Source: Parcubacteria bacterium RAAC4_OD1_1
Lineage (GTDB): Bacteria > Patescibacteriota > Minisyncoccia > Phycocordibacterales > UBA9973
Assembly (NCBI GenBank): GCA_000505065.1
Contig: AWSN01000001.1
Coordinates: 339,647 to 403,646, forward strand
Direction: 5' to 3'
Length of the DNA: 64,000 nucleotides
Shown here: piece by piece, positions 1-64,000 of the stretch
Layout of the letters: each line of letters starts with the position of its first letter
Numbering within the stretch: position 1 is the stretch's first letter
Made by a program: the position numbers and the translations under genes
Notes under the pieces: model-generated
What the model saw: only the letters and a program-made list of their open reading frames with translations
What the model was told of the DNA's origin: nothing
Database searches by the model: none

Positions 1-165
1 ACTTAGGGGGAAGTTCCTATGTATTACTACCTCGTTCGCCACTAACTTTAAACGACCTTTGACCTTGATATAATCTCAATCTCCGGAAATAAAAAGTCCG
101 TTCGACTTGCATGCCTTATCCACGCCGCCAGCGTTCATCCTGAGCTAGGATCAAACTCTATTAAA
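1..165 (-). rRNA. rrs: 16S rRNA, 5' end only (gene continues past window start)
   Basis: Reverse complement of about 100-159 reads AGAGTTTGATCCTAGCTCAGGATGAACGCTGGCGGCGTGGATAAGGCATGCAAGTCGAACGG, the universal 16S 5' region. Downstream matches the h5-h6/V1 pattern (GTGGCGAACGAGGTAGTAATACATAGG). Confidence 0.9.
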
Positions 166-213
166 AAAATAGAACGAAACAAAATAAAAAATACTTTGTT
201 TTTACTGGATTAT

Positions 214-10137: not shown

Positions 10138-10209
10138 GGATCTATAGTTCAGGGGCTAGAACACCAGATTTTAATTCTGGAAACATGAGTTCAACTCTCG
10201 TCAGATCTA
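10138..10209 (+). tRNA. tRNA-like gene with anticodon TTA (would read UAA; ochre-suppressor-like), possibly a pseudo-tRNA
   Basis: Cloverleaf: acceptor GGATCTA/CAGATCT (one A:C mismatch, one G:U); D-arm GTTC-AGGGGCTA-GAAC; anticodon stem CCAGA/TCTGG with loop TT-TTA-AT; 4-nt variable loop; T-arm ATGAG-TTCAACT-CTCGT. A terminator follows at 10313-10345. Confidence 0.5.
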
Positions 10210-10312
10210 CGGAAAGTTCTTTGTATATATAAACATATAAAAATGTGATTTTGGGAGAGGTCAACATTAAAGGGCATTCAACCGCTCGTTTGTTTATATT
10301 TGAAGAACTTAG

Positions 10313-51836: not shown

Positions 51837-53744
51837 TTATTTTACAACCTTTTCATTTCCATATTGAAAATTAGGATCATTCTGTAAAAAAGTCGTAGAT
51901 GCTTGTTTTTCACTATTTACTTCTACTTCTGCAAAAGAATCAAATCCAGATAAGTAAATTCCTTTCATTATTGTGGGAACAGATCCTACCTGAGAAATAG
52001 AAGGTCTAAATGATATAATAAAAGAAACTTCTTTACTTGTGTCAAATCCGGTATTAGGTCTTACAGATCCCGCATTCCAAATTATTTCTCTAGTAGAATT
52101 GTTATAAGATACTGAGTCATTAGTACCTGAAGCCATTCCCACAAAATCTACATATTCTGGAAGCTCTGTTTTAGCCTGTGCATTATTAATAAAATTTGAA
52201 GTATTAGAAAGTGTCCAAGTTACAATGTATCTAGTCTCATTTTCAGCCTTAGGAGGTAAAGGACCTGAAAGATATTTTACAGAATTTGCAATTTGAAAAT
52301 CTGAAATTATTTTTATAGATTTTTTAACAAAATTATTTACTTCATCAAAAGACGTCCCTGTGGTAGGCTGTTTGCCTTTTATACTTACTTCAATGTTTAT
52401 CTGTGGATCTTTTATGCTTGTATTACCAATAAGTAAAGATGCGGGTTTGATATTGAAGTCGACAGTTCCACTTTCACCAGGCTCTATATCAGAAAGACTA
52501 GAAATAGTGTTCTTGCTCCAAATTATTTTATTATTTAAAGAATCAAAATATCCATTATATGGATTTACATTATTTTTATCAAAAACATTTCCAGAAAGTG
52601 TTGCTACAATCTCTGCATCTATTATCCTTGAAGGTAAATTATTCGCCCATACAAGAGATACATTTATGTTTCCATTTGAATAAGCAGAGGGTTCAAATTT
52701 TTCTTCCCCATTTACTAAAATTTTTGTTTCAAGAAATGGTTTTGTGATTGAAACTTTATGAAGAAAAGAATTATAAACCATCTCCACAATAGCGGGATTA
52801 TTCCTTCCTGTTGCTCCAGCATACACTCTAAAAGATTGCTCATCTCCCTCATTACCCACCATCATCCCTTTTATCTCAATTGAAAATGGTTTTGTTAAAG
52901 AGAGTTCTGATAAATTCCAAACAGAATTTCCAATAGTAGGAGAAGGAACAGCGTTTTCAAAGACGAAATTACTTGGGTAATATACCTGTACAATATTATT
53001 TCCTTCTGGTAATGTGGTATTTAAGCTAGTATTTATTTTTATAGAAAAATCCTGTTCATTTGTAACATCACTAGGAGCCGTAAGGGTAAGAGATAGTGGT
53101 GCCGAAGAAATAGTGACCGGATGCTCAATGGTCTTTGTTATGATAGCATTTGAACCCTCTGAGTGGTATTCTAGGCTCACTTTTACATTTCTCGTAGATT
53201 TTTCCTCTCCATATAAAGTCACATTTACATTTCTTATAACACTTTCGCCAGATTTAATCGTCCCAATAACATCTCTAGGAAGTCTCACTATATCAGTATT
53301 TTCATCACTAGCACCCTTAGGATATTCAATCAAAAGATTTGCAAATTCTAATTTGGCGCTATTTTTGTTTGTAATCTCTACTTGTAATTGCAACTCTTCT
53401 CCCCCTTTTGCAAAAGCATTACCAAGGACAAGTATATCAATCTTTTCACTGGAAACAGAAGAATCTCCATTATAAAATTTATAAACAGAAAATCCAACAG
53501 CAAACAAGAAAAACACAAGAGCTCCAATAAAAAACTTTTTTGAAAATGATGATTTTGGTTTTTCTATTTTATTTTGTCTTTTCATATTTTCTAATTCTTC
53601 TTTAGAATAATCATCTCTCCAACTATAAGGCACTTCATGCCCTACTCGATGAAGAACCCTATCTTTATGTCTTTCTGATATTGTATCTTCTTTATCATAC
53701 AATCTGCGTCTTAAGTCTTCTATTTTAGAATCTTTTTCATTCAT
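51837..53744 (-). CDS. large membrane-anchored extracytoplasmic protein, unknown function
   Basis: Basic cytoplasmic N-terminus, one TM (FFIGALVFFLFAVGF), then about 550 aa of predicted beta-rich extracellular domains. Confidence 0.5.
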   Translation of the reverse strand: MNEKDSKIEDLRRRLYDKEDTISERHKDRVLHRVGHEVPYSWRDDYSKEELENMKRQNKIEKPKSSFSKKFFIGALVFFLFAVGFSVYKFYNGDSSVSSEKIDILVLGNAFAKGGEELQLQVEITNKNSAKLEFANLLIEYPKGASDENTDIVRLPRDVIGTIKSGESVIRNVNVTLYGEEKSTRNVKVSLEYHSEGSNAIITKTIEHPVTISSAPLSLTLTAPSDVTNEQDFSIKINTSLNTTLPEGNNIVQVYYPSNFVFENAVPSPTIGNSVWNLSELSLTKPFSIEIKGMMVGNEGDEQSFRVYAGATGRNNPAIVEMVYNSFLHKVSITKPFLETKILVNGEEKFEPSAYSNGNINVSLVWANNLPSRIIDAEIVATLSGNVFDKNNVNPYNGYFDSLNNKIIWSKNTISSLSDIEPGESGTVDFNIKPASLLIGNTSIKDPQINIEVSIKGKQPTTGTSFDEVNNFVKKSIKIISDFQIANSVKYLSGPLPPKAENETRYIVTWTLSNTSNFINNAQAKTELPEYVDFVGMASGTNDSVSYNNSTREIIWNAGSVRPNTGFDTSKEVSFIISFRPSISQVGSVPTIMKGIYLSGFDSFAEVEVNSEKQASTTFLQNDPNFQYGNEKVVK

Positions 53745-53772: not shown

Positions 53773-54360
53773 TTAAAGTTGGCTTTCGTTTAAAGCCTTG
53801 TTGATATATCCAATGATTGATCTTTTATCTTTAAGTAATGATTCTGTCTTCTTTATATTAATATCTCCATCCAAATAATCTCTTAAGGTGCTCGACTCTC
53901 CAATGTAACCAAGTGAGTCCATAATTCTAAGCACTAAATGTATCTCCAAGGCTTCTCTAGAAGATTTTGATACATCTTCATCATCTAATATATAAAGACA
54001 ATTTATAAGATCATCAAATATTTTTATATTAGCTTCTTCTCCCACACAAAGTCTCTCAAGAAGAGAGCTTACTTTTGCAATAAAAAATATAGAATCTTTA
54101 TTTGCCCGAGCGATAGGAAAGGTCGATATATTTCCTGCTGTAGTTATCCTCCAAATATCCTTACCTCTAACAAAGTCTATTTTTGCATACGAAAAATCTT
54201 GAAGTGAAAAACGAAGTTTTGATCTATGAAGTCTCACTCCTTGGACCATCGCCCGCACAAGCCCAAGCTCCCGAGTATAAACTGAAAGCATTTTATTCGC
54301 CTCCCCTTTATTTTTAGAGCTTAAAACAAATCCGTGAGTATGATAAATATGGTGATGCAT
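53773..54360 (-). CDS. recO: DNA repair protein RecO (short form)
   Basis: N-terminal OB fold HTHGFVLSSKNKGEANKMLSVYTRELGLVRAMVQG. Confidence 0.7.
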   Translation of the reverse strand: MHHHIYHTHGFVLSSKNKGEANKMLSVYTRELGLVRAMVQGVRLHRSKLRFSLQDFSYAKIDFVRGKDIWRITTAGNISTFPIARANKDSIFFIAKVSSLLERLCVGEEANIKIFDDLINCLYILDDEDVSKSSREALEIHLVLRIMDSLGYIGESSTLRDYLDGDINIKKTESLLKDKRSIIGYINKALNESQL

Positions 54361-54407: not shown

Positions 54408-55613
54408 TTATGGGATAAAAATTTCTTTTTCTATATATTCATTTGATTTTTGTTTTATAAAATCACGTAAATCATTTTTAATATCATCTTTATAATCATA
54501 AACAAAATTATCTAATTTATTAATTTTTAATTCTTTTGCTTTTTTAAGCATTTCTAAATATCTTTTACCTTTATCAGTTTGTAGATAATTATATACTGCT
54601 TCATTTTTATAAAATAAATCACAAATTTCTTCATAAGACAGAGTGTCCCATTTTTCATCTATCTCTTTTGATATAAATTCAACATATTTTCTAAATTCTT
54701 TCGATTCTTCACTTATTTCTTTTAAAATAATATTCCCTCTTTTTTCCTTCGGTAAATATTTTTTAAGAAAATCTTCAGTTTTTATAAATCCTTTTGAAGT
54801 ATAAAAATCTGGTATGCCTGTCTTTATAAATTTATTCATTCTTTCTTTATTTAATTTCCCGTTCTCATCTATAAATTGGCCCCAAAATCCTTCATTACCA
54901 GAAACTTGTTCTTTTCTTCCAGAAACAATAAAACCAATTCTTTTCCCAATAGGAGAATCTACAAGCCAAGAATTTGCAGTTATTGCTTTTACTTGTGGAT
55001 ATTCATCAACTATTTTAGAAGCTAAAATAGATAATGAATCTCCTGAAAATATACTTTTTAAATTAGAATCTTTTTCTTTTTGTTTGTACAATTCCTCAAA
55101 ATGAATTTCCAAACAATCATCCATATCAGATATACCAAATTTTTCTAATTCTTCATATCCTTTTACATTAAAATGAATCAACCCAGCACTAGGTCCTGAT
55201 TTTTCTGGTAATTTATTTATCTCGGGACCAATTTTATTTAAATTTTCCAAAGATATTTCTTTTATATTATATTTCCATTGTTTTTTATCTTTTAAATAAG
55301 AATCATTAATCTGACGAGATATTACTCCTGTAGTATACCCAATAATTTGATCAATTTTATCTTTTTTCATCTTTTCAAAATTAGGAATTCTTTTTAGACA
55401 TTCATCATAAATTACCCTTTTTAAATAAGAAAAATCCATAACCAAATCTCCAATATCTTTATCTTTTTCAATTTTTTGTTTAAATTCCCCAGAATATAAT
55501 TTCTCCACATATTGAAGTTGGTAATCAAAAACTTCTTCTCGGACACTCTCAAAACGTCTAGAATTATCAATATTAGAAATATCTTCCTTTTTAGGTATAT
55601 TTATTTTCTCCAT
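54408..55613 (-). CDS. hypothetical protein
   Basis: 401-aa ORF, charged, no motif recognised. Confidence 0.45.
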   Translation of the reverse strand: MEKINIPKKEDISNIDNSRRFESVREEVFDYQLQYVEKLYSGEFKQKIEKDKDIGDLVMDFSYLKRVIYDECLKRIPNFEKMKKDKIDQIIGYTTGVISRQINDSYLKDKKQWKYNIKEISLENLNKIGPEINKLPEKSGPSAGLIHFNVKGYEELEKFGISDMDDCLEIHFEELYKQKEKDSNLKSIFSGDSLSILASKIVDEYPQVKAITANSWLVDSPIGKRIGFIVSGRKEQVSGNEGFWGQFIDENGKLNKERMNKFIKTGIPDFYTSKGFIKTEDFLKKYLPKEKRGNIILKEISEESKEFRKYVEFISKEIDEKWDTLSYEEICDLFYKNEAVYNYLQTDKGKRYLEMLKKAKELKINKLDNFVYDYKDDIKNDLRDFIKQKSNEYIEKEIFIP

Positions 55614-55704: not shown

Positions 55705-58700
55705 TTATATTTTTATATCAATTTTTAATAGTATGTCTCCAATTTTTATTTCTTCTCCTTCATTTTCTTTTATAGAAACTTTGGCGCTTACAGCCTTTTC
55801 AAATTCTTTTTCAAATCTATTTATTATTTTCTGCCCTTCTACCCCTGTCTCTATCTCTAGATTTACCACATCATTTGGATTAAGTCCCATTTTCTTTCTC
55901 ATATCTTGGACCGCCCGTACCAACTCACGATAATTCCCCTCTTGTTTAAGTTCTGGGGTGATTTCTGTATCAAGCTGAATTGGTAAACTCATATCTATAG
56001 TAATAGTCTTAATTACTGAAGCAGAAATTTCATTCATAGAATGACCAAAATATATCTTTTTAACATTTACTTCTTCTTTAATAAGTTCTATAAATTGAAT
56101 ATCAGATTCATTTAATATTTTTGAATCATTTATTATCATTGAATTAAGTACTTGTCTTACGGGTCTTTGGTTTTTTTGTCTAGACTCCAAACCTAAAGAA
56201 ACCAATCTTCGAGTTTCCTCCATTTTTTGATTTAAATCATCTTTTAATTCTTGAATCTCTGGCCAGTTTGCAAGATGTACACTCTCTTCATCCATATCAT
56301 TTCTTAATTTCTGCCATATATCCTCACTCGCAAATGGAGCAAATGGGGCCATTAGTTTTGCTAAATTTTTTAAAACAAAATATAAAGTCTGCCTCGCCTC
56401 GCCATAGCCTTGTGCGGAGGCAGGTTGACTTGCTTCATCTTTTATTCTTTCTCTACTTCTCCTTAAATACCAAGTCGAAAGATCATCTATAAAATCTCTT
56501 ATAGATCTCACTGGCTCTAGGAGTTTATAATTTTCTAATCCTTCTGTTATATTTTTTGCAAGCTCAGCAAATCTTACCAAAATCCATTGATCAAGAACAT
56601 TAGCCTCCTCAAGGCCTTGCCTTGGACCCCCTAAAGGCAAGGCCTTTTCCCGGCTCTCTAATTCTTTATCTCTATAAAGCTCATAAAAAGCTAAAACATT
56701 GTAAAGTAAATTGAAAACTTTATTATGAAGTTCAGAGACAGTTTTTTCATCAAAGTTTTTTGATTCTCCTGGTTGATTCACCGAATACATCCACATACGG
56801 AGAGTGTCTGCACCATATTTATGTATCATCTCCCATGGGTCAACAATATTCCCAAGTGATTTACTCATCTTCTTTCCATTTGCATCTAATATATGACCAA
56901 GACAAATCACATTCTTATACGCTTTTCCTCGCCCCATTAAAACCCCCACAGCATGAAGTGTATAGAACCACCCACGAGTCTGATCTATTGCCTCTGAAAT
57001 AAAATCAGCTGGGTAATTTATCTCTCCATCAAACGGATAGTGATCTTGCGAGAATGGCATTGTGCCAGAGTCTAGCCAGACATCCATAACTTCTTTTGAT
57101 CTTTCTAATTTACCACTACATTCACATTGCAATTCTACTTCATCAATATAAGGCCTATGTAAATCAAGCTCATAGTTCTCATCATGAGGAATAGGATAAA
57201 AGGGTACTTCTCTCCATTCTGCATTCTTCAAATAATTATAATCCTTTATCATTTTTAAAGACTCTTCTCCATTAAGCCCCATAGATCCAGCGACAGCAAG
57301 CCAAGACGGCCCACCGTGAGTTACTATCAAAATATTTTTCCCAGAATATTTATCTTCCATTTCATAAAGGAAACTCATAATCCTTCTTTTCATATCATTG
57401 TATGATTCATTGCCATCTTCCCCATGATAAAATGTCTCCACTGTATTTGGGTAATCTTTATGATATTCTGTCCAAGTTCTACCTTCATACATAGGAAGAG
57501 ACATTTCGTGAAGCCTATCATCTACTATTACTTTTTCATCCTCTAATCCAATTACATCTTGCACAATCTCAGATGTTTCTCTTGCTCTAACAAAAGGAGA
57601 AGTAAAAATAAAATCAATATTTTTATCTTTCAAATTTTCTGCATTTTCTTTTACTTGATTCTTTCCATTTTCTGTTAAATGGTCTTCATTATTATATGAA
57701 GTGCTCACAAGATCAGTCAGATTATTGTCCGCCTCTCCGTGACGCATCACAAAATATTTATTCCCAGATTTCTTGGTTTTATTTTTTAAATCTTCTAGAC
57801 TTCTTATGACTTCAATTTTATTACACTTCTCGCATTTCCAGACCGGAAGTGGAGTACCCCAATAACGCTCCCGAGAAATTGCCCAATCTTTAATATCAGA
57901 AAGCCACTCACCAAATCGCCCTTCTTTTATATATGAAGGTTCCCAATTTATTCCTTTATTTTCTTCTACAAGCTTATCACGGAGGGCTGACATTTTGATA
58001 TACCAAGAATCTCGAGCATAGTATATGAGCGCAGTTTTACAACGCCAACAATGTGGGTATGAGTGCTCATATTTTTCTTTTTTAAATAATAATCCTCGAT
58101 GTGCCAAATCTTTGATTATTTCTACGGCAGTTTCTTCATCCCCGCCTGCAGTAGCTATGCTATCAGCATTGCGGGCAGGACGCACAAATCGCCCTTCAAG
58201 GAACCCAGTTCCCGGAAGGAATTTGCCATCAAGCCCTACAAGGTGATGCTTTGGAAGCCCAATCTCATTACCAAGCACAAAGTCATCTTGCCCATACATC
58301 ACTGCAGTGTGTACTACCCCTGTACCATCCTCTGTAGTCACAAAATCCGCAGGATAAACTTTAAAAGCTTTCTCAAGTTTATTTTTTTCACTATCAGAAA
58401 TAGTATCTTTTAAAAATGGATAAAGTGGTTCATATTCTAAACCAACTAAATCTGAGCCTTTAAATTCTTCTAGAATTTCATATTCACCTTCTATTGTGGA
58501 CAAGCGAGCCTTTGCAAGAATATAAATTTCATTTTCTTTTTTTATTTTTACATAATCAATATCCTTCCCCACAGCAAGTGCCACATTCCCTGGTAATGTC
58601 CAAGGTGTTGTCGTCCAAGCCAAAATATAAGTATTTTCTTGTCCTTTTATTTTAAACTTCGCATATACAGATAAATCTTTTACATCTTGGTACCCTTGAG

Positions 58701-59277
58701 CAAGCTCATGAGAAGAAAGCGTAGTTCCACATCTTGGACACCAAGGCACAACTTTATAATCTTTAAACAAAAGTCCTTGATCATTTACATTTTTTATAAT
58801 ATTCCAAACAGATTCTATGTAATCATTATGATAAGTCACATAAGCATTCTTCTGATCCACCCAGTATCCGATACGGTCTGTAAATTTCTCCCAGATGTCA
58901 GTATACTCCCAAACGGATTCTTTACATTCATGATTAAATTTTGAAATTCCATATTCTTCAATTGCCTTTTTGGAAGTAAGTCCTAATTTTTTCTCTACTT
59001 GAAGTTCTACTGGTAATCCATGAGTATCCCAGCCACCTTTCCTGCGGACATGGTAGCCTTTCATTGTTTTATATCTTGGTATTGCATCCTTGAAAGCTCT
59101 CGCCTCTAGGTGGTGTATCCCCGGCTTTCCATTGGCAGTCGGAGGGCCTTCATAGAAAACATACTCCCCTTTTGGCGCATCCTTCTCTAAACTTTTTTGA
59201 AATATATTATTTTCTTTCCAAAATTCTAAAATTTTTTCTTCATTCTGTGCCCTTTGTGATTTTATTTCTTCGTTCAT
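55705..59277 (-). CDS. ileS: isoleucyl-tRNA synthetase (type 2) with about 185-aa histidine-phosphatase (PGAM-like) domain inserted in the catalytic core
   Basis: HIGH (PPTANGKPGIHH), CP1 editing domain, KMSKS, anticodon-binding domain. Residues about 505-690 (YFVMRHGEADNN...ILIVTHGGPSW) lie between the WKCEKC zinc knuckle and LHRPYIDE. Confidence 0.9.
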   Translation of the reverse strand: MNEEIKSQRAQNEEKILEFWKENNIFQKSLEKDAPKGEYVFYEGPPTANGKPGIHHLEARAFKDAIPRYKTMKGYHVRRKGGWDTHGLPVELQVEKKLGLTSKKAIEEYGISKFNHECKESVWEYTDIWEKFTDRIGYWVDQKNAYVTYHNDYIESVWNIIKNVNDQGLLFKDYKVVPWCPRCGTTLSSHELAQGYQDVKDLSVYAKFKIKGQENTYILAWTTTPWTLPGNVALAVGKDIDYVKIKKENEIYILAKARLSTIEGEYEILEEFKGSDLVGLEYEPLYPFLKDTISDSEKNKLEKAFKVYPADFVTTEDGTGVVHTAVMYGQDDFVLGNEIGLPKHHLVGLDGKFLPGTGFLEGRFVRPARNADSIATAGGDEETAVEIIKDLAHRGLLFKKEKYEHSYPHCWRCKTALIYYARDSWYIKMSALRDKLVEENKGINWEPSYIKEGRFGEWLSDIKDWAISRERYWGTPLPVWKCEKCNKIEVIRSLEDLKNKTKKSGNKYFVMRHGEADNNLTDLVSTSYNNEDHLTENGKNQVKENAENLKDKNIDFIFTSPFVRARETSEIVQDVIGLEDEKVIVDDRLHEMSLPMYEGRTWTEYHKDYPNTVETFYHGEDGNESYNDMKRRIMSFLYEMEDKYSGKNILIVTHGGPSWLAVAGSMGLNGEESLKMIKDYNYLKNAEWREVPFYPIPHDENYELDLHRPYIDEVELQCECSGKLERSKEVMDVWLDSGTMPFSQDHYPFDGEINYPADFISEAIDQTRGWFYTLHAVGVLMGRGKAYKNVICLGHILDANGKKMSKSLGNIVDPWEMIHKYGADTLRMWMYSVNQPGESKNFDEKTVSELHNKVFNLLYNVLAFYELYRDKELESREKALPLGGPRQGLEEANVLDQWILVRFAELAKNITEGLENYKLLEPVRSIRDFIDDLSTWYLRRSRERIKDEASQPASAQGYGEARQTLYFVLKNLAKLMAPFAPFASEDIWQKLRNDMDEESVHLANWPEIQELKDDLNQKMEETRRLVSLGLESRQKNQRPVRQVLNSMIINDSKILNESDIQFIELIKEEVNVKKIYFGHSMNEISASVIKTITIDMSLPIQLDTEITPELKQEGNYRELVRAVQDMRKKMGLNPNDVVNLEIETGVEGQKIINRFEKEFEKAVSAKVSIKENEGEEIKIGDILLKIDIKI

Positions 59278-59344
59278 ATATTTTCTATTAAATTAATAAT
59301 TTAATAAATTAAAATTTTAATAAGTCTTTTTAACGAAGCAAATT

Positions 59345-59435
59345 ATTTTATGAAAAAATGTCTGGCACCGGTTCCCGTCCCCCTTGTCCGAGGACTTTTT
59401 TCAGAATATAATTTGCGAAGTTTTTATTTTTTAAA
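59345..59435 (+). repeat. repeat family 2, copy 2 (between T-box terminator and ileS start)
   Basis: tgaaaaaatgtctggcaccggttcccgtcccccttgtccgaggacttttttcagaatataatttgcgaagttttt. Confidence 0.7.
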
Positions 59436-59660
59436 TAAAAAACTCGTCCACATATAGCAATCCAATAGATTGTTATATAAGGACGAGTTTCTATCCTAAT
59501 TCGCAATGCGAACGGACAAGCCCGTGGTACCACCTTTTTTCTTCCGCAAAGCGGAACTCATTTATAGGGTTCTACCGACTCTTGAGGCCTTGCCTAAAGA
59601 GTTTTCTTCCCAGTGCTAGCCTTATAAATAAGGCAAAGGCTGATAACCTCGATCACACTC
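59428..59660 (-). promoter_or_regulatory. T-box riboswitch leader of ileS
   Basis: On minus strand: T-box sequence AAGGTGGTACCACGGG (59521-59536, consensus GGGTGGTACCGCGG), then terminator AAACTCGTCC-loop-GGACGAGTTT plus U-run (59428-59490); ATC in a candidate specifier region; about 200-nt structured leader. Confidence 0.7.
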
Positions 59661-59711
59661 TTAAATAATAACACTAATTTAATATATTGCAAACTTCTCA
59701 TAAAATTTTAA

Positions 59712-59735
59712 AACCCCTTAATTAAGGGGTTTTAA
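59712..59735. terminator. bidirectional hairpin terminator
   Basis: aaaaccccttaattaaggggtttt immediately after the stop of the small ORF. Confidence 0.55.
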
Positions 59736-59861
59736 AATTACTTTGATTTCTTTTTACTTTTTTTATTTTCTAGCATTACCTTCTTTATTGCCAATCTTTT
59801 CTTTGTCTTCTTTGAGTGTCTAGATTTTACATGCGGGTGTAATGATGTAGCTCTTTTTGCC
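59736..59861 (-). CDS. small basic protein (41 aa), possibly ribosomal-protein-like
   Basis: MAKRATSLHPHVKSRHSKKTKKRLAIKKVMLENKKSKKKSK; the stop abuts a hairpin terminator; not in the ORF track because shorter than 60 aa. Confidence 0.4.
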
Positions 59862-59957
59862 ATATATTTACTTGAGTGAACATTTAAATAAATGTTTTAA
59901 CTTAAATTAATTAATAAATCTACCTACTTATATAATATATTATTTTAAATAAATTAC

Positions 59958-61292
59958 CTAATTTATTATTTCTTCTATTTCGCTCCCCTTTTTATAAATT
60001 ACCAAATCTTTATCACCCAAATCTTCCCAATTCTTTTTTACTTGTCCGACTATCCTCCAAGTTTCTAAGACTTCTTTACCCGAAGTAAAAAATTTATGGT
60101 CTCCTAATATCGCGCTATATATCACCTGCTCATAAGCTTTTGGTAACGATTCATAATGATTCTTAAAATTAAATTCAAGTGTATGGCTTGCTACATCATG
60201 ATCATATCCTGGCTTTTTCGTAAGTAAAGAAAAAGATATTCCTTCATTTGGCTCAAGTCTGAAAAGTAATTCATTAGACTCATGATCACGAACTTTTTTA
60301 TATAAAATCCTTATCTCTGTATATTTCTCTTTTAAAGCTTTACCTGTCGAAAGCTTAATAGATACTCCCTTCCAATTCTTATCACTTGATGAAAGTGAGA
60401 TGGATGCAAAAGTTTCTACATTACTATTATCATTATTAACTTCTTCTTTATATCCCTCATATTGACCTCTAACAGATACAATTTTATTTTTATCTTTTAA
60501 AACTTTTACTTTCTTTAAAGCCTTAAACCTAAGTTCGCCGATATCAGAAATGCTATAATTTTTATCTAGATTTATAAGAGTAAGAGAAAGCAGTCCAAGT
60601 AAATGACTTTGGATAAGGTCACGAAGAGCTCCTGTCTGCTCATAAAAGTTTGCCCGCCCCTCAATACCAATACTTTCACTCACATTAATTTCAATACTAT
60701 TTATAAAATCTTTATTCCAAGTCTTTTTAAAGAGAGAGTTGCCTTCACGGAAAACAAGCAAATTTTGCACAGTTTCTTTCGCCAAATAATGATCTATGCG
60801 ATACACTTTATCCTCATCAAAATATTTATCTATATGAGAAAGCATTAAAGATGCCGAATCATAATCCACCCCAAAAGGCTTTTCTAAAAGTAATTTAGAA
60901 TTATCACTCGCAAGTCCTGACTTACCAATAAGTTCTATAATTTTTGAAGAAGCAAGAGGTGGAACAGAAAGATAAAATAAATATTGTGGATTATCTAAAT
61001 TATATTTTTCTCCAATTTCAAATAAAAACTTTTTTAAAGATAAATAATCTTTAATCTCATTTAAGTCCATTTCAAAAATGTCTATCTTGTCTTTAAGAAT
61101 CTTTTCATCCTCTTCATTCTTACACAATTTACCTTTATTAAAGTTACTTTGCCTAGTGACTCCGACTATCCTAAACTGATCTGGGAGTTTTTCATTTTTA
61201 GATATTTCAGCAAGTGCTGGTAAAAGCTTCCTGGTAGATAAATCCCCAGTTATACCTACTATTATCAATATTGTTGGTCTTAGATTATTCAT
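59958..61292 (-). CDS. zwf: glucose-6-phosphate 1-dehydrogenase
   Basis: NAD(P)-binding IVGITGDLSTRKLLPAL and active-site RIDHYLAKE. Confidence 0.9.
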   Translation of the reverse strand: MNNLRPTILIIVGITGDLSTRKLLPALAEISKNEKLPDQFRIVGVTRQSNFNKGKLCKNEEDEKILKDKIDIFEMDLNEIKDYLSLKKFLFEIGEKYNLDNPQYLFYLSVPPLASSKIIELIGKSGLASDNSKLLLEKPFGVDYDSASLMLSHIDKYFDEDKVYRIDHYLAKETVQNLLVFREGNSLFKKTWNKDFINSIEINVSESIGIEGRANFYEQTGALRDLIQSHLLGLLSLTLINLDKNYSISDIGELRFKALKKVKVLKDKNKIVSVRGQYEGYKEEVNNDNSNVETFASISLSSSDKNWKGVSIKLSTGKALKEKYTEIRILYKKVRDHESNELLFRLEPNEGISFSLLTKKPGYDHDVASHTLEFNFKNHYESLPKAYEQVIYSAILGDHKFFTSGKEVLETWRIVGQVKKNWEDLGDKDLVIYKKGSEIEEIIN

Positions 61293-62190
61293 TTATTTTA
61301 TGCCCACCGAAAGCATTTCGCATAGAAGCGAGTAGTTTGGTAGCAAAATTAATTTTACCTTTTTGTGACTCTATTCGTACATCAAAAGAAGAAGAGATGG
61401 CTGGTGTCTCTATATCATATTCTTTTGCCACTTCAAGTGCCCATCTTGCCTCCCCTGATTCAGACACAGTTCCGCTCACTCCCTCCTGATTAGGATTTTC
61501 TTTTAATGCATCACGAGTAAGTTCATTAAGCCAAGAAGTAATCACGCTTCTGTGTTGCCATACATCACCGGCTTTATACAAATCCAAATTCTTGTATGGT
61601 CCTTCTTTAAGAAGTCTATACCCCTCAGCGAGTGACTCCATCATCCCGTATTCTATAGCATTGTGTACCATTTTTACATAATGTCCCGATCCACTCTCAC
61701 CAAAATAAGCATACATCCCTGTAGGACTTTTCAGGGTTTCAAGCATAGGCTTTATGTACTCTATTGATTCGCTATCTCCTCCTATCATCATAGAGAATCC
61801 ATTTTGGTACCCCCACACTCCTCCACTAGTGCCTATATCAATAAATTTAAATCCAGAAGAAGAGAGTTCTTCACTTCTCCTTTTTGTATCCACAAAACGA
61901 GAATTCCCACCATCTATAATGATACTTTCTTTAGGTAGTATTTTTACCCATTCTTTCATTTCATCATCTACAGTCTCGTGGGGTATCATCATCCAAAGGA
62001 CAATCTTCTCGTCACCACTAAAATTTCCTAAAGCTTCTTCTTTAGTATAAGCTCCCACCATCCCCAATTCTTTATGTACATCAACTTTTTCTTTTCCTCT
62101 ATTATGAGCGATAACTATGTGCCCACCTTCGTGGAGCTTCTTCGCAATTTGTGAACCCATCCTCCCCAAACCTGATATAATAATTTTCAT
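61285..62190 (-). CDS. gnd: 6-phosphogluconate dehydrogenase (decarboxylating), short about 300-aa form
   Basis: MKIIISGLGRMGSQIAKKL Rossmann fold and 6PGD C-terminal region. Confidence 0.85.
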   Translation of the reverse strand: MKIIISGLGRMGSQIAKKLHEGGHIVIAHNRGKEKVDVHKELGMVGAYTKEEALGNFSGDEKIVLWMMIPHETVDDEMKEWVKILPKESIIIDGGNSRFVDTKRRSEELSSSGFKFIDIGTSGGVWGYQNGFSMMIGGDSESIEYIKPMLETLKSPTGMYAYFGESGSGHYVKMVHNAIEYGMMESLAEGYRLLKEGPYKNLDLYKAGDVWQHRSVITSWLNELTRDALKENPNQEGVSGTVSESGEARWALEVAKEYDIETPAISSSFDVRIESQKGKINFATKLLASMRNAFGGHKINE

Positions 62191-62191
62191 T

Positions 62192-62845
62192 TTATTTATA
62201 ATCTGTAAAAACTGTTAATTGTTTGACCTTTTTTAAAATTTGAGCAGGCATTTCTTCTTTATTGATATCTTTATTTAAATTCTCCACCATAGCCCATTTA
62301 TCACTACCAAAAACATAAAGAAATACTTCATCAAGATTTTCTAAAATTTTAAATGTTGTGGTAAATCTCTCAAAAACCCCTCCATCATAATAGCATAATA
62401 GCCCATCTTCAAACACAGCCGGACTTTTAGGAAGTATCCCCCCTGTATGACCATCACTACCCATCCCCATAAAAGCTACCTTATAATCTGCTTTTAAAAT
62501 AGCATCACGCAATTCCCTTTCTAAATAAGATTTTGTTTCCTCTACACTTTTACCAATCAAAAATGGTATAAGTTTTTTGTTTTCAAAATTGAAACCCAAA
62601 TTTTTCAATTTTTCCCAATTTGAATCTTTGTGTCCCACTTCTCCCCATCTTTCATCTGAAAGTGTTATCGTCAAATTATCTTCATTAAAGTTTTCAAGTT
62701 TTTGAGAAACCAAAACTTCTGTTTCCAATGATGACCCTCCACAAACAAAAAACAAAACCTTTTTACCTTCTTTTAATTTTTGATTTATAATAGAAGCCAC
62801 ATATTCTGCTATCTCTTCTTTGTTTAAATTATTTTTGATTTCCAT
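62192..62845 (-). CDS. pgl: 6-phosphogluconolactonase
   Basis: Fold of the glucosamine-6-P isomerase/6PGL family (FFVCGGSSLETEV...); operon zwf-gnd-pgl. Confidence 0.75.
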   Translation of the reverse strand: MEIKNNLNKEEIAEYVASIINQKLKEGKKVLFFVCGGSSLETEVLVSQKLENFNEDNLTITLSDERWGEVGHKDSNWEKLKNLGFNFENKKLIPFLIGKSVEETKSYLERELRDAILKADYKVAFMGMGSDGHTGGILPKSPAVFEDGLLCYYDGGVFERFTTTFKILENLDEVFLYVFGSDKWAMVENLNKDINKEEMPAQILKKVKQLTVFTDYK

Positions 62846-63291: not shown

Positions 63292-64000
63292 CTACATCCT
63301 CTCCGGAATTTCGATTCCTAAGAGCCAAAGGCCATTTTTCATAGTTTGATAAAATGATTTTATGAGATTCAAATGGTAATTCATATATTTATTTTCCTCA
63401 ACAAGAATTTGGGTATTGCCATAGAAAGTGTTAAATTCACTTGCGAGCTTTGTAAGATAAACTGCAATATGATGCGGAGCAAGCTCTTGATAAGAGTATT
63501 CTACAATCTCAGGGAATTGATATAATAATTTTTCAAAATCATTAATAATTTCTGGAATTATCCCTATGTCCAGGCCTTGCCTGGACACAATATCTTTTGC
63601 TTTATTTAAAATCGAATTTGCTCGTACAGCAGAGTATTGAAGGTATGGACCTGAATCACCATCGAAAGAAATTGATTTATCTTGGTCATAAACAATATCA
63701 GAACCTAATGATGATCTAAGTATTGAATATTTTAAAGCTGAAACTCCCACTATCCTTGAAATATCATTTTTTTCTTCATCCTGTATATCTCTTTCTTTTA
63801 TTTTTTCTAACACAATATTCATCGAATCATTGAGTAAAGATTCCCCTGTAACTACATTCCCTTTTCTTGAAGACATTTTACCATCAGCAAAACGCATCAT
63901 TCCATGAGTTATATGCAACATTCTTTTCTCATAATCAGGGTGAATGAGTGAAATAGCCTTCTGGACCACTTTCATATATTCTGCTTGTTCAGTAGCAGTT
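63292..64000 (-). CDS. argS: arginyl-tRNA synthetase, C-terminal part (gene continues past window end)
   Basis: Catalytic HITHGMMRFADGKMSSRKG and DALK anticodon-binding domain (DQDKSISFDGDSGPYLQYSAVRANSIL); ends with ...PERM stop. Confidence 0.9.
   Translation of the reverse strand, partial: TATEQAEYMKVVQKAISLIHPDYEKRMLHITHGMMRFADGKMSSRKGNVVTGESLLNDSMNIVLEKIKERDIQDEEKNDISRIVGVSALKYSILRSSLGSDIVYDQDKSISFDGDSGPYLQYSAVRANSILNKAKDIVSRQGLDIGIIPEIINDFEKLLYQFPEIVEYSYQELAPHHIAVYLTKLASEFNTFYGNTQILVEENKYMNYHLNLIKSFYQTMKNGLWLLGIEIPERM

What the first reader, a model, noticed from the sequence alone, without database searches (positions are those of the whole stretch)
57208..57765. Histidine-phosphatase (PGAM-like) domain inserted into the catalytic core of IleS
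Between the conserved WGTPLPVWKCEKC zinc knuckle and the LHRPYIDE...DVWLDSG segment, where IleS enzymes normally have about 40-60 residues, this protein carries about 185 residues. The insert has an RHGE motif (YFVMRHGEADNN), a downstream ...TSPFVRARETSEI and a THGG His (ILIVTHGGPSW). This is the catalytic signature of the histidine phosphatase superfamily. An intact second enzymatic domain embedded in an aminoacyl-tRNA synthetase is unusual. It could act on a nucleotide or phosphorylated substrate linked to aminoacylation, or be a parasitic domain insertion.
Basis: partly seen in the sequence, partly recalled or inferred. Interest (0 to 1): 0.65.

Follow-up and report, generated by a model that had tools for sequence, protein, structure and literature searches.

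The report
Phosphatase domain nested inside IleRS
The isoleucyl-tRNA synthetase of this tiny Patescibacteria bacterium carries a complete, apparently active histidine-phosphatase enzyme inside its catalytic domain, and in sister lineages the same phosphatase is a separate gene abutting ileS, so the two enzymes look like long-term partners whose joint role is unknown and which I found in no paper of the searched library.

Summary
**Observation confirmed.** Window 55705-59277 (-) encodes a 1190-aa type-2 IleRS. Residues ~500-702 are a full branch-1 histidine phosphatase (Pfam His_Phos_1, E=1.7e-33), inserted between the two halves of a Zn knuckle. Insert-less relatives have ~20-35 residues there.

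**Conservation.**
- All catalytic residues (R512, H513, N519, R564, E591, H654) are invariant in 120/120 homologue clusters.
- The rest of the domain drifts: mean column identity 0.61, against 0.86-0.88 for the IleRS core.

**New finding.**
- The closest free-standing relatives (~195 aa, Parcubacteria/Minisyncoccales/Nealsonbacteria) lie immediately upstream of an insert-less ileS, abutting or overlapping it.
- Of 80 species loci, 48 are adjacent, 16 nested and 1 sits one gene away. About 10 lie elsewhere and 5 are uninformative.
- The nested and adjacent states exclude each other. The ArgRS-IleS-RecO synteny is kept in both.
- Other IleS proteins carry 2-4 copies at up to three sites, all catalytically intact.

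**Interpretation.** The fold matches small-molecule phosphatases (GpgP, PspA, PhoE, CobC), not mutases. It is most likely an active phosphomonoesterase kept in obligate linkage with IleRS. The substrate is unknown, and no paper in the searched library describes it.

The parts
55705..59277 (-). ileS ORF, 1190 aa: a type-2 (eukaryote-like) isoleucyl-tRNA synthetase hosting the nested domain
   Evidence: ORF found. TIGR00392 scores 882 bits (cutoff 621). Pfam finds tRNA-synt_1, Anticodon_1 and DUF5915. Best PDB matches are PmIleRS2 8c8w and T. thermophilus 1ile. Identical to an NCBI protein named 'isoleucine--tRNA ligase [Candidatus Nomurabacteria bacterium]' on a 693,530-bp contig.
57172..57780 (-). 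Nested histidine-phosphatase module including linkers (residues ~500-702). It corresponds end to end to a whole free-standing protein of ~195 aa.
   Evidence: Alignment with insert-less IleS from L001, L003, L005 and L008, and with the free-standing protein. Gap in the PDB alignment. AF2 domain model has pLDDT 86 and pTM 0.85.
57250..57753 (-). Pfam His_Phos_1 core, residues 509-676
   Evidence: E=1.7e-33. Foldseek TM ~0.75 to Rv2419c GpgP, PspA, PhoE, HFP and CobC.
57736..57744 (-). R512-H513-G514, the 'RHG' motif. H513 is the predicted phospho-accepting nucleophile.
   Evidence: R and H are invariant in 120/120 clusters, G in 119/120. Aligns to the RHG motif of PhoE 1ebb.
57586..57588 (-). 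R564, second phosphate-binding arginine (SPFVRARET)
   Evidence: Invariant in 120/120 clusters. Kept in all copies at sites A, B and C and in free-standing forms.
57505..57507 (-). E591, predicted general acid (DDRLHE)
   Evidence: Invariant in 120/120 clusters. E or D in the free-standing family.
57316..57318 (-). H654, second catalytic histidine (THGG)
   Evidence: Invariant in 120/120 clusters and across the mixed nested/free alignment.
57823..57834 (-). First half of the Zn knuckle, C482-E-K-C485, directly upstream of the insert
   Evidence: Cys present in 119/120 clusters. Same motif in insert-less relatives.
57118..57126 (-). Second half of the Zn knuckle, C718-E-C720, downstream of the insert
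   Evidence: Cys present in 119/120 clusters.
56857..56871 (-). KMSKS class I signature (residues 803-807), intact
59110..59121 (-). GIHH (residues 53-56), the swapped G/AxHH variant of the class I HxGH signature
   Evidence: Sequence. 112/120 homologue clusters read GxHH. The motif is described for IleRS2 in PMC10485003.
59278..59957 (.). Gene-free spacer upstream of ileS. It holds no separate phosphatase gene and no relic of one.
   Evidence: Only short ORFs. No Rfam hit. Six-frame hmmsearch with the domain HMM finds only the nested copy in the whole 64-kb window.
59958..62845 (-). zwf-gnd-pgl (oxidative pentose-phosphate genes). They occupy the interval between argS and ileS, where sister lineages have the free-standing phosphatase gene.
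   Evidence: Pfam. Synteny comparison with L001-L009.
63292..63975 (-). C-terminal part of argS (the gene runs off the window), the conserved upstream synteny anchor
   Evidence: tRNA-synt_1d, DALR_1. ArgRS precedes the phosphatase gene and ileS in related loci.
53773..54360 (-). recO, the conserved downstream synteny anchor
   Evidence: RecO follows ileS in related loci.

Best explanation
**Shown.**
- The segment is a complete, independently folding branch-1 histidine phosphatase (a compact phosphomonoesterase of the PhoE/PspA/GpgP/CobC type). It is nested in the loop of a CxxC...CxC zinc knuckle in the second half of the catalytic domain of an otherwise intact type-2 IleRS.
- It is the same protein that, in sister Patescibacteria lineages, is encoded by a ~195-aa gene directly upstream of ileS, abutting or overlapping it.
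- Where the domain is nested, the upstream slot is empty.

**Inferred.**
- The polypeptide is bifunctional.
- IleRS charges tRNA-Ile as usual. The class I motifs, editing-domain motifs and Zn ligands are all kept.
- The nested domain hydrolyses a phosphomonoester through a phospho-His513 intermediate. R512, R564, N519 and H654 would bind the phosphate and E591 would act as general acid.

**Why I think the two are coupled.**
- Linkage persists in every configuration: a tightly abutting or overlapping cistron, a nested domain, 1-4 copies, and three insertion sites.
- All three sites lie in the KMSKS half of the catalytic domain.

This argues that the phosphatase is a dedicated companion of IleRS, made with it in fixed stoichiometry and probably acting close to it. 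I consider it most likely to act on a small phosphorylated molecule or a phosphorylated end group that arises at, or interferes with, the aminoacylation site. The substrate is not identified.
For: **Identity and integrity**
- Pfam E=1.7e-33.
- The six catalytic residues are invariant in 120/120 clusters, while the domain overall is much less conserved than the IleRS core (0.61 against 0.86-0.88 mean column identity).
- The AF2 domain model has pLDDT 86 and pTM 0.85.
- The nearest solved folds are small-molecule phosphatases at TM ~0.75.
- The host passes TIGR00392.

**Linkage with ileS**
- 6/6 free-standing relatives looked up lie immediately upstream of an insert-less ileS of 949-989 aa.
- Among 80 species-representative loci: 48 directly upstream, 15 nested plus 1 split-nested, and 1 one gene away. 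About 10 are elsewhere and 5 are uninformative.
- The nested and adjacent states are mutually exclusive, and the ArgRS-IleS-RecO synteny is kept.
- The window has no second copy.

**Recurrence**
- In an exhaustive search, 100 of the 150 best hits are IleS-embedded (nearly all at the same junction). The other 50 show no IleS flank: mostly free-standing ~190-210-aa proteins, a few of them IleS fragments (P0138, P0150). No other host protein was recognised.
- Relatives carry 2-4 copies at sites A, B and C, all with intact catalytic sets.
- Nested Nealsonbacteria domains are closer to free-standing Nealsonbacteria proteins (57-65% identity) than to the window's nested domain (32-37%). States are interleaved on the IleS tree.
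Against: - No biochemical data exist and no substrate has been identified.
- About 10 of 75 informative loci have the free-standing gene away from ileS. In L027 it stays in the ArgRS-RecO slot although ileS has left, so it can function without adjacency.
- The closest characterised relatives are ordinary metabolic phosphatases.
- Gene order in this region is conserved in general, so adjacency could be historical. Proximity alone could then explain why IleS is the recipient.
Whether the phosphatase active site faces the synthetic site, the tRNA or bulk solvent is therefore unknown.
- The IleS tree is a rough NJ tree without support values.
Confidence: 0.6

Rival explanations
1. Hitch-hiking housekeeping phosphatase. 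The domain is an active, ordinary metabolic phosphatase with no mechanistic tie to aminoacylation. It happened to lie next to ileS in a conserved housekeeping gene array. Local rearrangements moved it into permissive surface loops of IleS, where it is kept only because the cell still needs the phosphatase and gets constitutive co-expression for free.
For: - Nearest characterised relatives act on small metabolites.
- About 10 loci show the free-standing gene in other contexts, and L027 keeps it without ileS.
- The whole region (infC-rpmI-rplT, smpB, argS, ileS, recO, class II aaRS, M16 peptidase) is syntenic across lineages.
- Gene proximity offers a simple route to insertion.
Against: - The easiest fusions, read-through into the IleS N-terminus or onto the ArgRS C-terminus, were not seen among the 150 best hits. 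Instead there is internal nesting at three sites, all in IleS.
- The two cistrons abut or overlap.
- 2-4 copies occur in some IleS proteins, all with catalytic residues intact.
- Linkage persists across two divergent IleS types within Nealsonbacteria.
Confidence: 0.33
2. Catalytically dead structural module. The domain has been co-opted as a scaffold or tRNA-binding appendage, an enlarged connective peptide, and no longer hydrolyses anything.
For: - Class I synthetases tolerate and exploit non-catalytic insertions. One example is the LeuRS leucine-specific domain (PMC3643597).
- The linker residues are well conserved.
Against: - All six catalytic residues are invariant in 120/120 clusters and in every copy at every site, while surface positions drift.
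- The free-standing orthologues keep the same set.
Confidence: 0.04
3. Parasitic or mobile insertion, or an assembly or annotation artefact (chimeric contig, intein-like element, or a gene-calling fusion of two genes).
For: - Some related proteins do carry mobile-element-like matches. P0217 has an IS200-like Y1_Tnp match.
- Metagenome assemblies can be chimeric.
Against: - A single uninterrupted frame, with IleS sequence on both sides and the Zn knuckle halves preserved.
- The same junction is seen in 100 of the 150 best hits from independent samples, and an identical protein is held in several public databases (ncbi, lgn, ena; 2 contigs).
- GC content of the insert (0.31-0.35) is slightly below that of the flanking ileS sequence (0.36-0.39).
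- No bracketing repeats.
- No intein-type junction residues. The junctions read ...KKSGNKYF and ...PIPHDENYELDLH.
- No PADLOC match.
Confidence: 0.02

Closest known systems
Compact branch-1 histidine phosphatases: PhoE/YhfR (1ebb, 1h2e), phosphoserine phosphatase PspA (4ij5), glucosyl-3-phosphoglycerate phosphatase Rv2419c (4pz9), HFP (9mmh), CobC (6nru)
   Same: - Same fold and size (~200 aa), with TM 0.70-0.76.
- Same catalytic constellation: RHG, Asn, Arg, Glu, His.
- Same cap-helix region.
   Different: - Only 22-26% identity.
- Below every curated NCBIfam cutoff for these families.
- Own subfamily signature: invariant E624 and R632, and an HG[GD]P motif.
- Encoded inside ileS or abutting it, rather than as an unlinked metabolic gene.
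Type-2 isoleucyl-tRNA synthetase (IleRS2), e.g. P. megaterium IleRS2 (8c8u-8c9d) and T. thermophilus IleRS (1ile)
   Same: - Full-length collinear match outside the insert.
- DUF5915 C-terminal domain.
- CxxC...CxC knuckle.
- G/AxHH signature variant, as described for part of IleRS2 (PMC10485003).
   Different: About 200 extra residues forming a second enzyme in the knuckle loop, where the solved structures have about 8-35 residues.
NCBIfam NF040702 'isoleucine--tRNA ligase, N-acetyltransferase domain-containing' (ileS_w_GNAT)
   Same: A precedent, by the model's name, for an IleRS that carries an additional enzymatic domain. A relative (P0217) has both His_Phos_1 and GNAT matches.
   Different: The window protein scores 317 bits against a cutoff of 1999, has no GNAT domain, and carries a different extra enzyme.
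Bifunctional RNase H / acid phosphatase (NCBIfam NF005567, PRK07238; Rv2228c type)
   Same: A His_Phos_1 domain is combined with a nucleic-acid enzyme in one polypeptide. The insert matches the phosphatase half (81.8 bits).
   Different: - That is an end-to-end fusion, not a nested domain.
- The score is below the cutoff of 326.
- The partner enzyme is different.
LeuRS leucine-specific domain and other class Ia connective-peptide insertions
   Same: [quoted passage not shown]
   Different: - The LSD is non-enzymatic.
- It sits directly before KMSKS, which is not this site. I first recalled it as equivalent, and the paper corrected that.
- It has no free-standing gene counterpart.

Membership tests
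Histidine phosphatase superfamily, branch 1 (Pfam PF00300) | Profile match above the curated gathering score | tested here: met
   116.4 bits against 21.7, E=1.7e-33, profile positions 2-169 of 194.
Histidine phosphatase superfamily, branch 1 (Pfam PF00300) | RHG motif with nucleophilic His, plus the second Arg, the acidic proton donor and the second His | tested here: met
   R512, H513, G514, N519, R564, E591 and H654 are present and invariant in 120 clusters. They align to PhoE and are kept in all copies.
Histidine phosphatase superfamily, branch 1 (Pfam PF00300) | Alpha/beta phosphoglycerate-mutase-like fold | tested here: met
   AF2 pLDDT 86, pTM 0.85. Foldseek finds 309 PDB matches at E<=0.001, and all 50 matches listed are superfamily members.
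Histidine phosphatase superfamily, branch 1 (Pfam PF00300) | Phosphomonoesterase or phosphotransfer activity via phospho-histidine | not testable with these tools
   Requires an enzyme assay.
Cofactor-dependent phosphoglycerate mutase (dPGM) | Score above curated equivalog cutoffs, plus the mutase-type features: the C-terminal tail and the motif following the second His | tested here: not met
   dPGM_arch scores 97 bits against a cutoff of 225, and all other dPGM models fall far below their cutoffs. The domain reads HGG, or HGD in the free-standing form, and ends about 35-45 residues after H654. That true mutases have HGN and a longer tail is from my own knowledge.
CobC alpha-ribazole phosphatase, PspA phosphoserine phosphatase, SixA phosphohistidine phosphatase | Score above the curated NCBIfam cutoff | tested here: not met
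   TIGR03162 scores 85.6 against 162.9. NF045917 scores 54 against 350. TIGR00249 scores 46.6 against 74.5.
Isoleucyl-tRNA synthetase (TIGR00392) | Equivalog model above cutoff | tested here: met
   882.2 bits against 621.4.
Isoleucyl-tRNA synthetase (TIGR00392) | Class I signature motifs, CP1 editing motifs and Zn ligands retained | tested here: met
   - GIHH at 53-56 and KMSKS at 803-807.
- WTTTPWTLPGN at 221-231 and GTGVVHT at 318-324.
- C482, C485, C718 and C720.
Type-2 IleRS (IleRS2) | Closest to IleRS2 and eukaryote-like enzymes, no C-terminal IleRS1 zinc-binding domain, and the G/AxHH motif that is tolerated only in IleRS2 | tested here: met
   - Best PDB hits are PmIleRS2 and TtIleRS (E 1e-246 to 1e-231), against S. 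aureus IleRS1 at 1e-96.
- DUF5915 C-terminal domain.
- GxHH per PMC10485003.
ileS_w_GNAT (NF040702) | Score above cutoff and presence of a GNAT domain | tested here: not met
   317 bits against 1999. No acetyltransferase Pfam hit.
Intein or mobile-element insertion | Splicing junction residues, a homing endonuclease or transposase, and flanking repeats | tested here: not met
   The junction sequences are not intein-like. The only Pfam domain is His_Phos_1. There are no bracketing repeats.

The most novel reading that the evidence does not exclude
The phosphatase is a purpose-built accessory of IleRS that removes a blocking phosphate at the aminoacylation site. Candidate targets are a 2'/3'-phosphorylated or pyrophosphorylated tRNA-Ile CCA end, a phosphorylated residue of IleRS itself (as toxin kinases do to other synthetases), or a phosphorylated adenylate-mimicking inhibitor. 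That would make it a previously unknown repair or immunity layer built into, or translationally coupled to, an aminoacyl-tRNA synthetase across a large part of the Patescibacteria.
Probability: 0.2. Interest if true: 0.85.

Novelty: new variant of a known kind. Interest (0 to 1): 0.62.

Why it matters
- **A rare case among bacteria.** From my own knowledge, extra domains that give aminoacyl-tRNA synthetases new functions are discussed mainly for eukaryotes, so a bacterial synthetase hosting a second, intact enzyme inside its catalytic domain is unusual.
- **Strong genomic signal.** The same phosphatase is either a gene abutting ileS or a nested domain, in one to four copies at up to three sites, in hundreds of Patescibacteria species. 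Gene fusion combined with conserved adjacency is among the strongest genomic indicators of a functional partnership.
- **A hypothesis to test.** The pattern points to an unrecognised requirement of isoleucyl-tRNA synthesis, or of its protection, in these ultra-small symbionts.
- **Directly testable.** One carrier of the two-gene form, Minisyncoccus archaeiphilus PMX.108, is a cultured strain per its genome record title. The nested form can be expressed with a single His-to-Ala control.
- **A natural experiment in domain insertion.** The data show repeated switching between 'neighbour gene' and 'nested domain' states at one loop.
- **If ordinary after all.** If the phosphatase turns out to be a plain metabolic enzyme, the case still documents how genome-reduced bacteria pack enzymes into essential genes.

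Tried and rejected
1. **Full-length AF2 model.** The insert is confident (pLDDT 85-94), but the IleRS core is poor and pTM is 0.49. No coordinates are exposed, so I could not place the phosphatase active site relative to the synthetic site, the editing site or the tRNA.
2. **LeuRS leucine-specific domain analogy.** I first recalled that site A equals the position of this domain, next to KMSKS. PMC3643597 shows the LSD sits directly before KMSKS, a different position, so I dropped the analogy. Calling site A 'CP3' rests on my memory of ValRS/IleRS nomenclature. PMC11685878 names CP2 and CP3 but the text gives no boundaries.
3. **Mixed nested plus free alignment (A2).** It was too divergent for the genome pattern scan. 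I used the free-standing family (A3) instead, so the census is seeded from one side.
4. **P0138 and P0150.** They looked free-standing by length but are IleS fragments ending in the LDLH/HRPYVD flank.
5. **Relic of a free-standing gene.** A search in the 680-bp gap upstream of ileS and in the whole window found none.
6. **PADLOC defence models.** No hits for the insert, a free-standing orthologue or the two unknown neighbours.
7. **Flanking repeats.** Only short AT-rich chance matches.
8. **Literature.** Five term combinations found no paper describing an IleRS, or any aaRS, with a histidine-phosphatase domain. A 2026 preprint on IleRS domain evolution mentions neither phosphatases nor Patescibacteria.
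9. **GxHH regex on locus ORFs.** It missed most sequences, so I make no claim about a motif-state correlation.
10. **Domain nearest-neighbour analysis for site B and C copies.** Distances are all large (0.64-0.75), so duplication versus independent capture is unresolved.
Full report
**What is there**

- Window 55705-59277 (minus strand) is one uninterrupted 1190-aa ORF.
- It passes NCBI's curated IleS equivalog model (TIGR00392, 882 bits, cutoff 621). Pfam shows tRNA-synt_1, Anticodon_1 and the IleRS2-type C-terminal DUF5915.
- Its best solved relatives are Priestia megaterium IleRS2 and Thermus thermophilus IleRS (E 1e-246 to 1e-231), far ahead of IleRS1 enzymes.
- An identical protein is in NCBI as 'isoleucine--tRNA ligase [Candidatus Nomurabacteria bacterium]' on a 693,530-bp contig.
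- The window therefore comes from a small, low-GC (about 0.3-0.4) Patescibacteria genome.

**The observation**

- Pfam His_Phos_1 matches residues 509-676 with E=1.7e-33, nested between two tRNA-synt_1 segments.
- In the alignment to 8c8w, query 6-498 and 702-1084 match chain 7-475 and 484-856. About 203 residues replace about 8.
- Close insert-less Parcubacteria IleS proteins have 20-35 residues between the CxxC and the H(R/K)P(Y/W) elements, where this protein has about 220. The extra stretch, about residues 500-702, is as long as a complete free-standing phosphatase.
- The insertion lies between the two halves of a zinc knuckle (C482/C485 and C718/C720). These cysteines are kept in 119/120 relatives.

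**Is the domain functional?**

- In 120 homologue clusters (62-100% identical overall), R512, H513, N519, R564, E591 and H654 are invariant, and G514 is 119/120. Two further residues, E624 (119/120) and R632 (120/120), are also nearly or fully invariant.
- Mean column identity is only 0.61 in the insert, against 0.86-0.88 in the IleRS catalytic parts. A drifting surface with a frozen active site is the signature of selection for catalysis.
- These residues align with the catalytic set of PhoE.
- A domain-only AF2 model is confident (pLDDT 86, pTM 0.85).
- Its nearest solved folds are compact small-molecule phosphatases at TM about 0.75 and 22-26% identity: Rv2419c glucosyl-3-phosphoglycerate phosphatase, PspA phosphoserine phosphatase, PhoE, HFP and CobC.
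- It fails every curated family cutoff: dPGM, CobC, PspA and SixA. It lacks mutase-type features. I therefore file it in the superfamily only, as a phosphatase rather than a mutase.

**How widespread**

- All 120 best clusters in the 5.8-billion-protein collection carry PF00300. Where named, they are Nomurabacteria, Pacebacteria or Paceibacterota.
- An exhaustive phmmer search with the insert alone gave 1210 representatives at E<=1e-10.
- Of the best 150, 100 have IleS flanks. In nearly all of these the domain sits at the same junction: the N flank ends at query 497/498 and the C flank starts at 702-704.
- The other 50 have no IleS flank. Most of these are free-standing proteins of about 190-210 aa, and a few (P0138, P0150) proved to be IleS fragments.
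- No other host protein was recognised.

**The key result**

- The genuine free-standing relatives are a ~190-200-aa family in Parcubacteria/Paceibacterota.
- All six members whose contigs I fetched lie immediately upstream of ileS on the same strand, from a 4-nt overlap to a 41-nt gap. In L009 a second, tandem phosphatase gene lies between the copy I looked up and ileS.
- That ileS is 949-989 aa and has no PF00300.
- The neighbourhood matches the window: ArgRS, phosphatase, IleS, a small ORF, RecO, a ~550-aa unknown protein, a class II synthetase and an M16 peptidase.
- A scan of GTDB species representatives found 293 genomes with a relative. They include Nealsonbacteria, Wildermuthbacteria, Minisyncoccales and the strain Minisyncoccus archaeiphilus PMX.108.

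The 80 best loci classify as follows:

| State | Loci |
|---|---|
| Gene directly upstream of ileS | 48 |
| Domain truly nested at the same loop | 15 |
| Nested but in a split ORF (L086) | 1 |
| One gene between the phosphatase gene and ileS (L036) | 1 |
| Uninformative (contig ends) | 5 |
| Elsewhere (including L027: ArgRS-phosphatase-RecO, with ileS gone) | about 10 |

- No adjacent locus has a nested copy, and no nested locus has an upstream copy.
- Nested loci keep ArgRS-IleS-RecO with the slot empty.
- The window has no second copy and no relic. Its slot is occupied by zwf-gnd-pgl plus a 680-bp spacer.

**Recurrence**

Other IleS relatives carry more copies.
- P0161 has domains at three sites. 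Site A is inside the knuckle. Site B is just after DVWxDSG. Site C is after KMSKS, directly before the anticodon-binding domain.
- P0168 and P0202 have copies at B and C with site A unoccupied. P0254 and P0235 have A and C.
- P0122, which is truncated, has four tandem copies.
- Every copy keeps the catalytic set.

On the direction and number of events:
- Nested domains of the Nealsonbacteria clade score higher against the free-standing-family HMM than against the HMM from the window's clade.
- They are 57-65% identical to free-standing Nealsonbacteria proteins but only 32-37% identical to the window's domain.
- On a rough NJ tree of the host IleS with the insert masked, nested and adjacent states are interleaved.
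- This suggests more than one switch between states, or exchange of the module. I cannot give a direction or a number with this tree.

**Interpretation**

Shown:
- an intact histidine-phosphatase domain nested in a functional-looking IleRS2;
- the same protein as a tightly linked upstream cistron in sister lineages;
- mutual exclusion of the two states;
- multi-site, multi-copy variants.

Inferred:
- The protein is bifunctional.
- The phosphatase is a dedicated companion of IleRS. Fusion plus conserved adjacency is a classical indicator of functional linkage.
- The trivial end-to-end fusions, with the IleS N-terminus or with the other neighbour ArgRS, were not seen among the best hits. Internal nesting recurs instead.

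I put 0.6 on this coupled-partner reading.

The main rival (0.33) is an ordinary metabolic phosphatase that hitch-hiked into ileS because it lay next to it.
- It is supported by the small-molecule-phosphatase fold.
- It is also supported by the roughly 13% of loci where the gene is unlinked.

A dead structural module and a parasitic or artefactual insertion are both unlikely.

The substrate is unknown. The geometry relative to the synthetic site could not be assessed.

**Novelty**

- Seven full-text searches and two targeted reads found no description of a histidine-phosphatase domain in, or operonically coupled to, an aminoacyl-tRNA synthetase.
- The architecture is visible in precomputed Pfam annotations, and JGI even labels some free-standing members 'isoleucyl-tRNA synthetase'. 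The raw fact is therefore in databases, but its meaning is unexplored.
- I rate it a new variant of a known kind: a synthetase with an accreted domain.

Noticed in passing
window 10138-10210 (+): A well-formed tRNA gene (Rfam 58.4 bits) whose anticodon is UUA (anticodon loop TTTTAAT), so it would read the UAA stop codon. Yet TAA terminates 42 of 48 long ORFs in the window, so UAA is not reassigned. It is an unexplained suppressor-like tRNA.
   Followed up: partly
window 59110-59121 (-), IleS residues 53-56: The class I HxGH signature is replaced by GIHH. This is the swapped G/AxHH motif that PMC10485003 links to mupirocin hyper-resistance in type-2 IleRS. 112 of 120 homologue clusters read GxHH.
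   Followed up: partly
L082 4516-8061 and 8065-11109 (GTDB MAG contig CAYUUM010000002.1): Two tandem IleS genes. The second (~1015 aa) lacks the CP1 editing domain (IleS N-terminal HMM positions 196-386 are missing), yet it also carries the nested phosphatase.
   Followed up: no
P0217 (1066 aa): An IleS relative with an IS200-like Y1 transposase match inside the CP1 region (residues 340-461), a nested His_Phos_1 domain (680-854) and a GNAT acetyltransferase domain (935-1063). Compare NCBIfam 'ileS_w_GNAT'. Patescibacteria IleS seems to be a hotspot for domain accretion.
   Followed up: no
P0122, P0161, P0168, P0202, P0254, P0235, P0240: IleS proteins with 2-4 histidine-phosphatase domains at up to three different insertion sites, all with intact catalytic residues. 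P0223 and P0224 are tandem double phosphatases without IleS flanks. L009 has two tandem free-standing genes upstream of ileS.
   Followed up: partly
window 59278-59957: A 680-bp gene-free, slightly GC-richer spacer upstream of ileS. It has no Rfam family, no tRNA and no phosphatase relic, and its function is unknown (leader, promoter region or unannotated RNA).
   Followed up: partly
window 54408-55613 (-) and 51837-53744 (-): Two conserved-position ORFs (401 and 635 aa) between ileS, recO and the class II synthetase. They have no Pfam or PADLOC match. The counterpart of the larger one in related loci shows only faint DUF7619/CLIPPER hits.
   Followed up: no
window 1-166 (-): The 5' end of a 16S rRNA gene, cut by the window edge (Rfam SSU_rRNA_bacteria, 71.8 bits).
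   Followed up: no
L001, L005, L008, L079 versus L003, L069 and the window: Two divergent IleS types occur among these Patescibacteria, only 37-40% identical to each other outside the insert, with different motifs ('ISKKRYWGLALP...NPWLDAG' against 'ISRERYWGTPLP...DVWLDSG'). Both types occur within Nealsonbacteria, and both are linked to the phosphatase.
   Followed up: partly
L010-L089 record titles: Many of the GTDB MAGs carrying the Parcubacteria-type phosphatase-ileS module are titled 'uncultured Candidatus Saccharibacteria bacterium', one is titled 'Candidatus Pacearchaeota archaeon' and one 'candidate division WOR-3'. These are probably loose or wrong submitter taxonomy.
   Followed up: no
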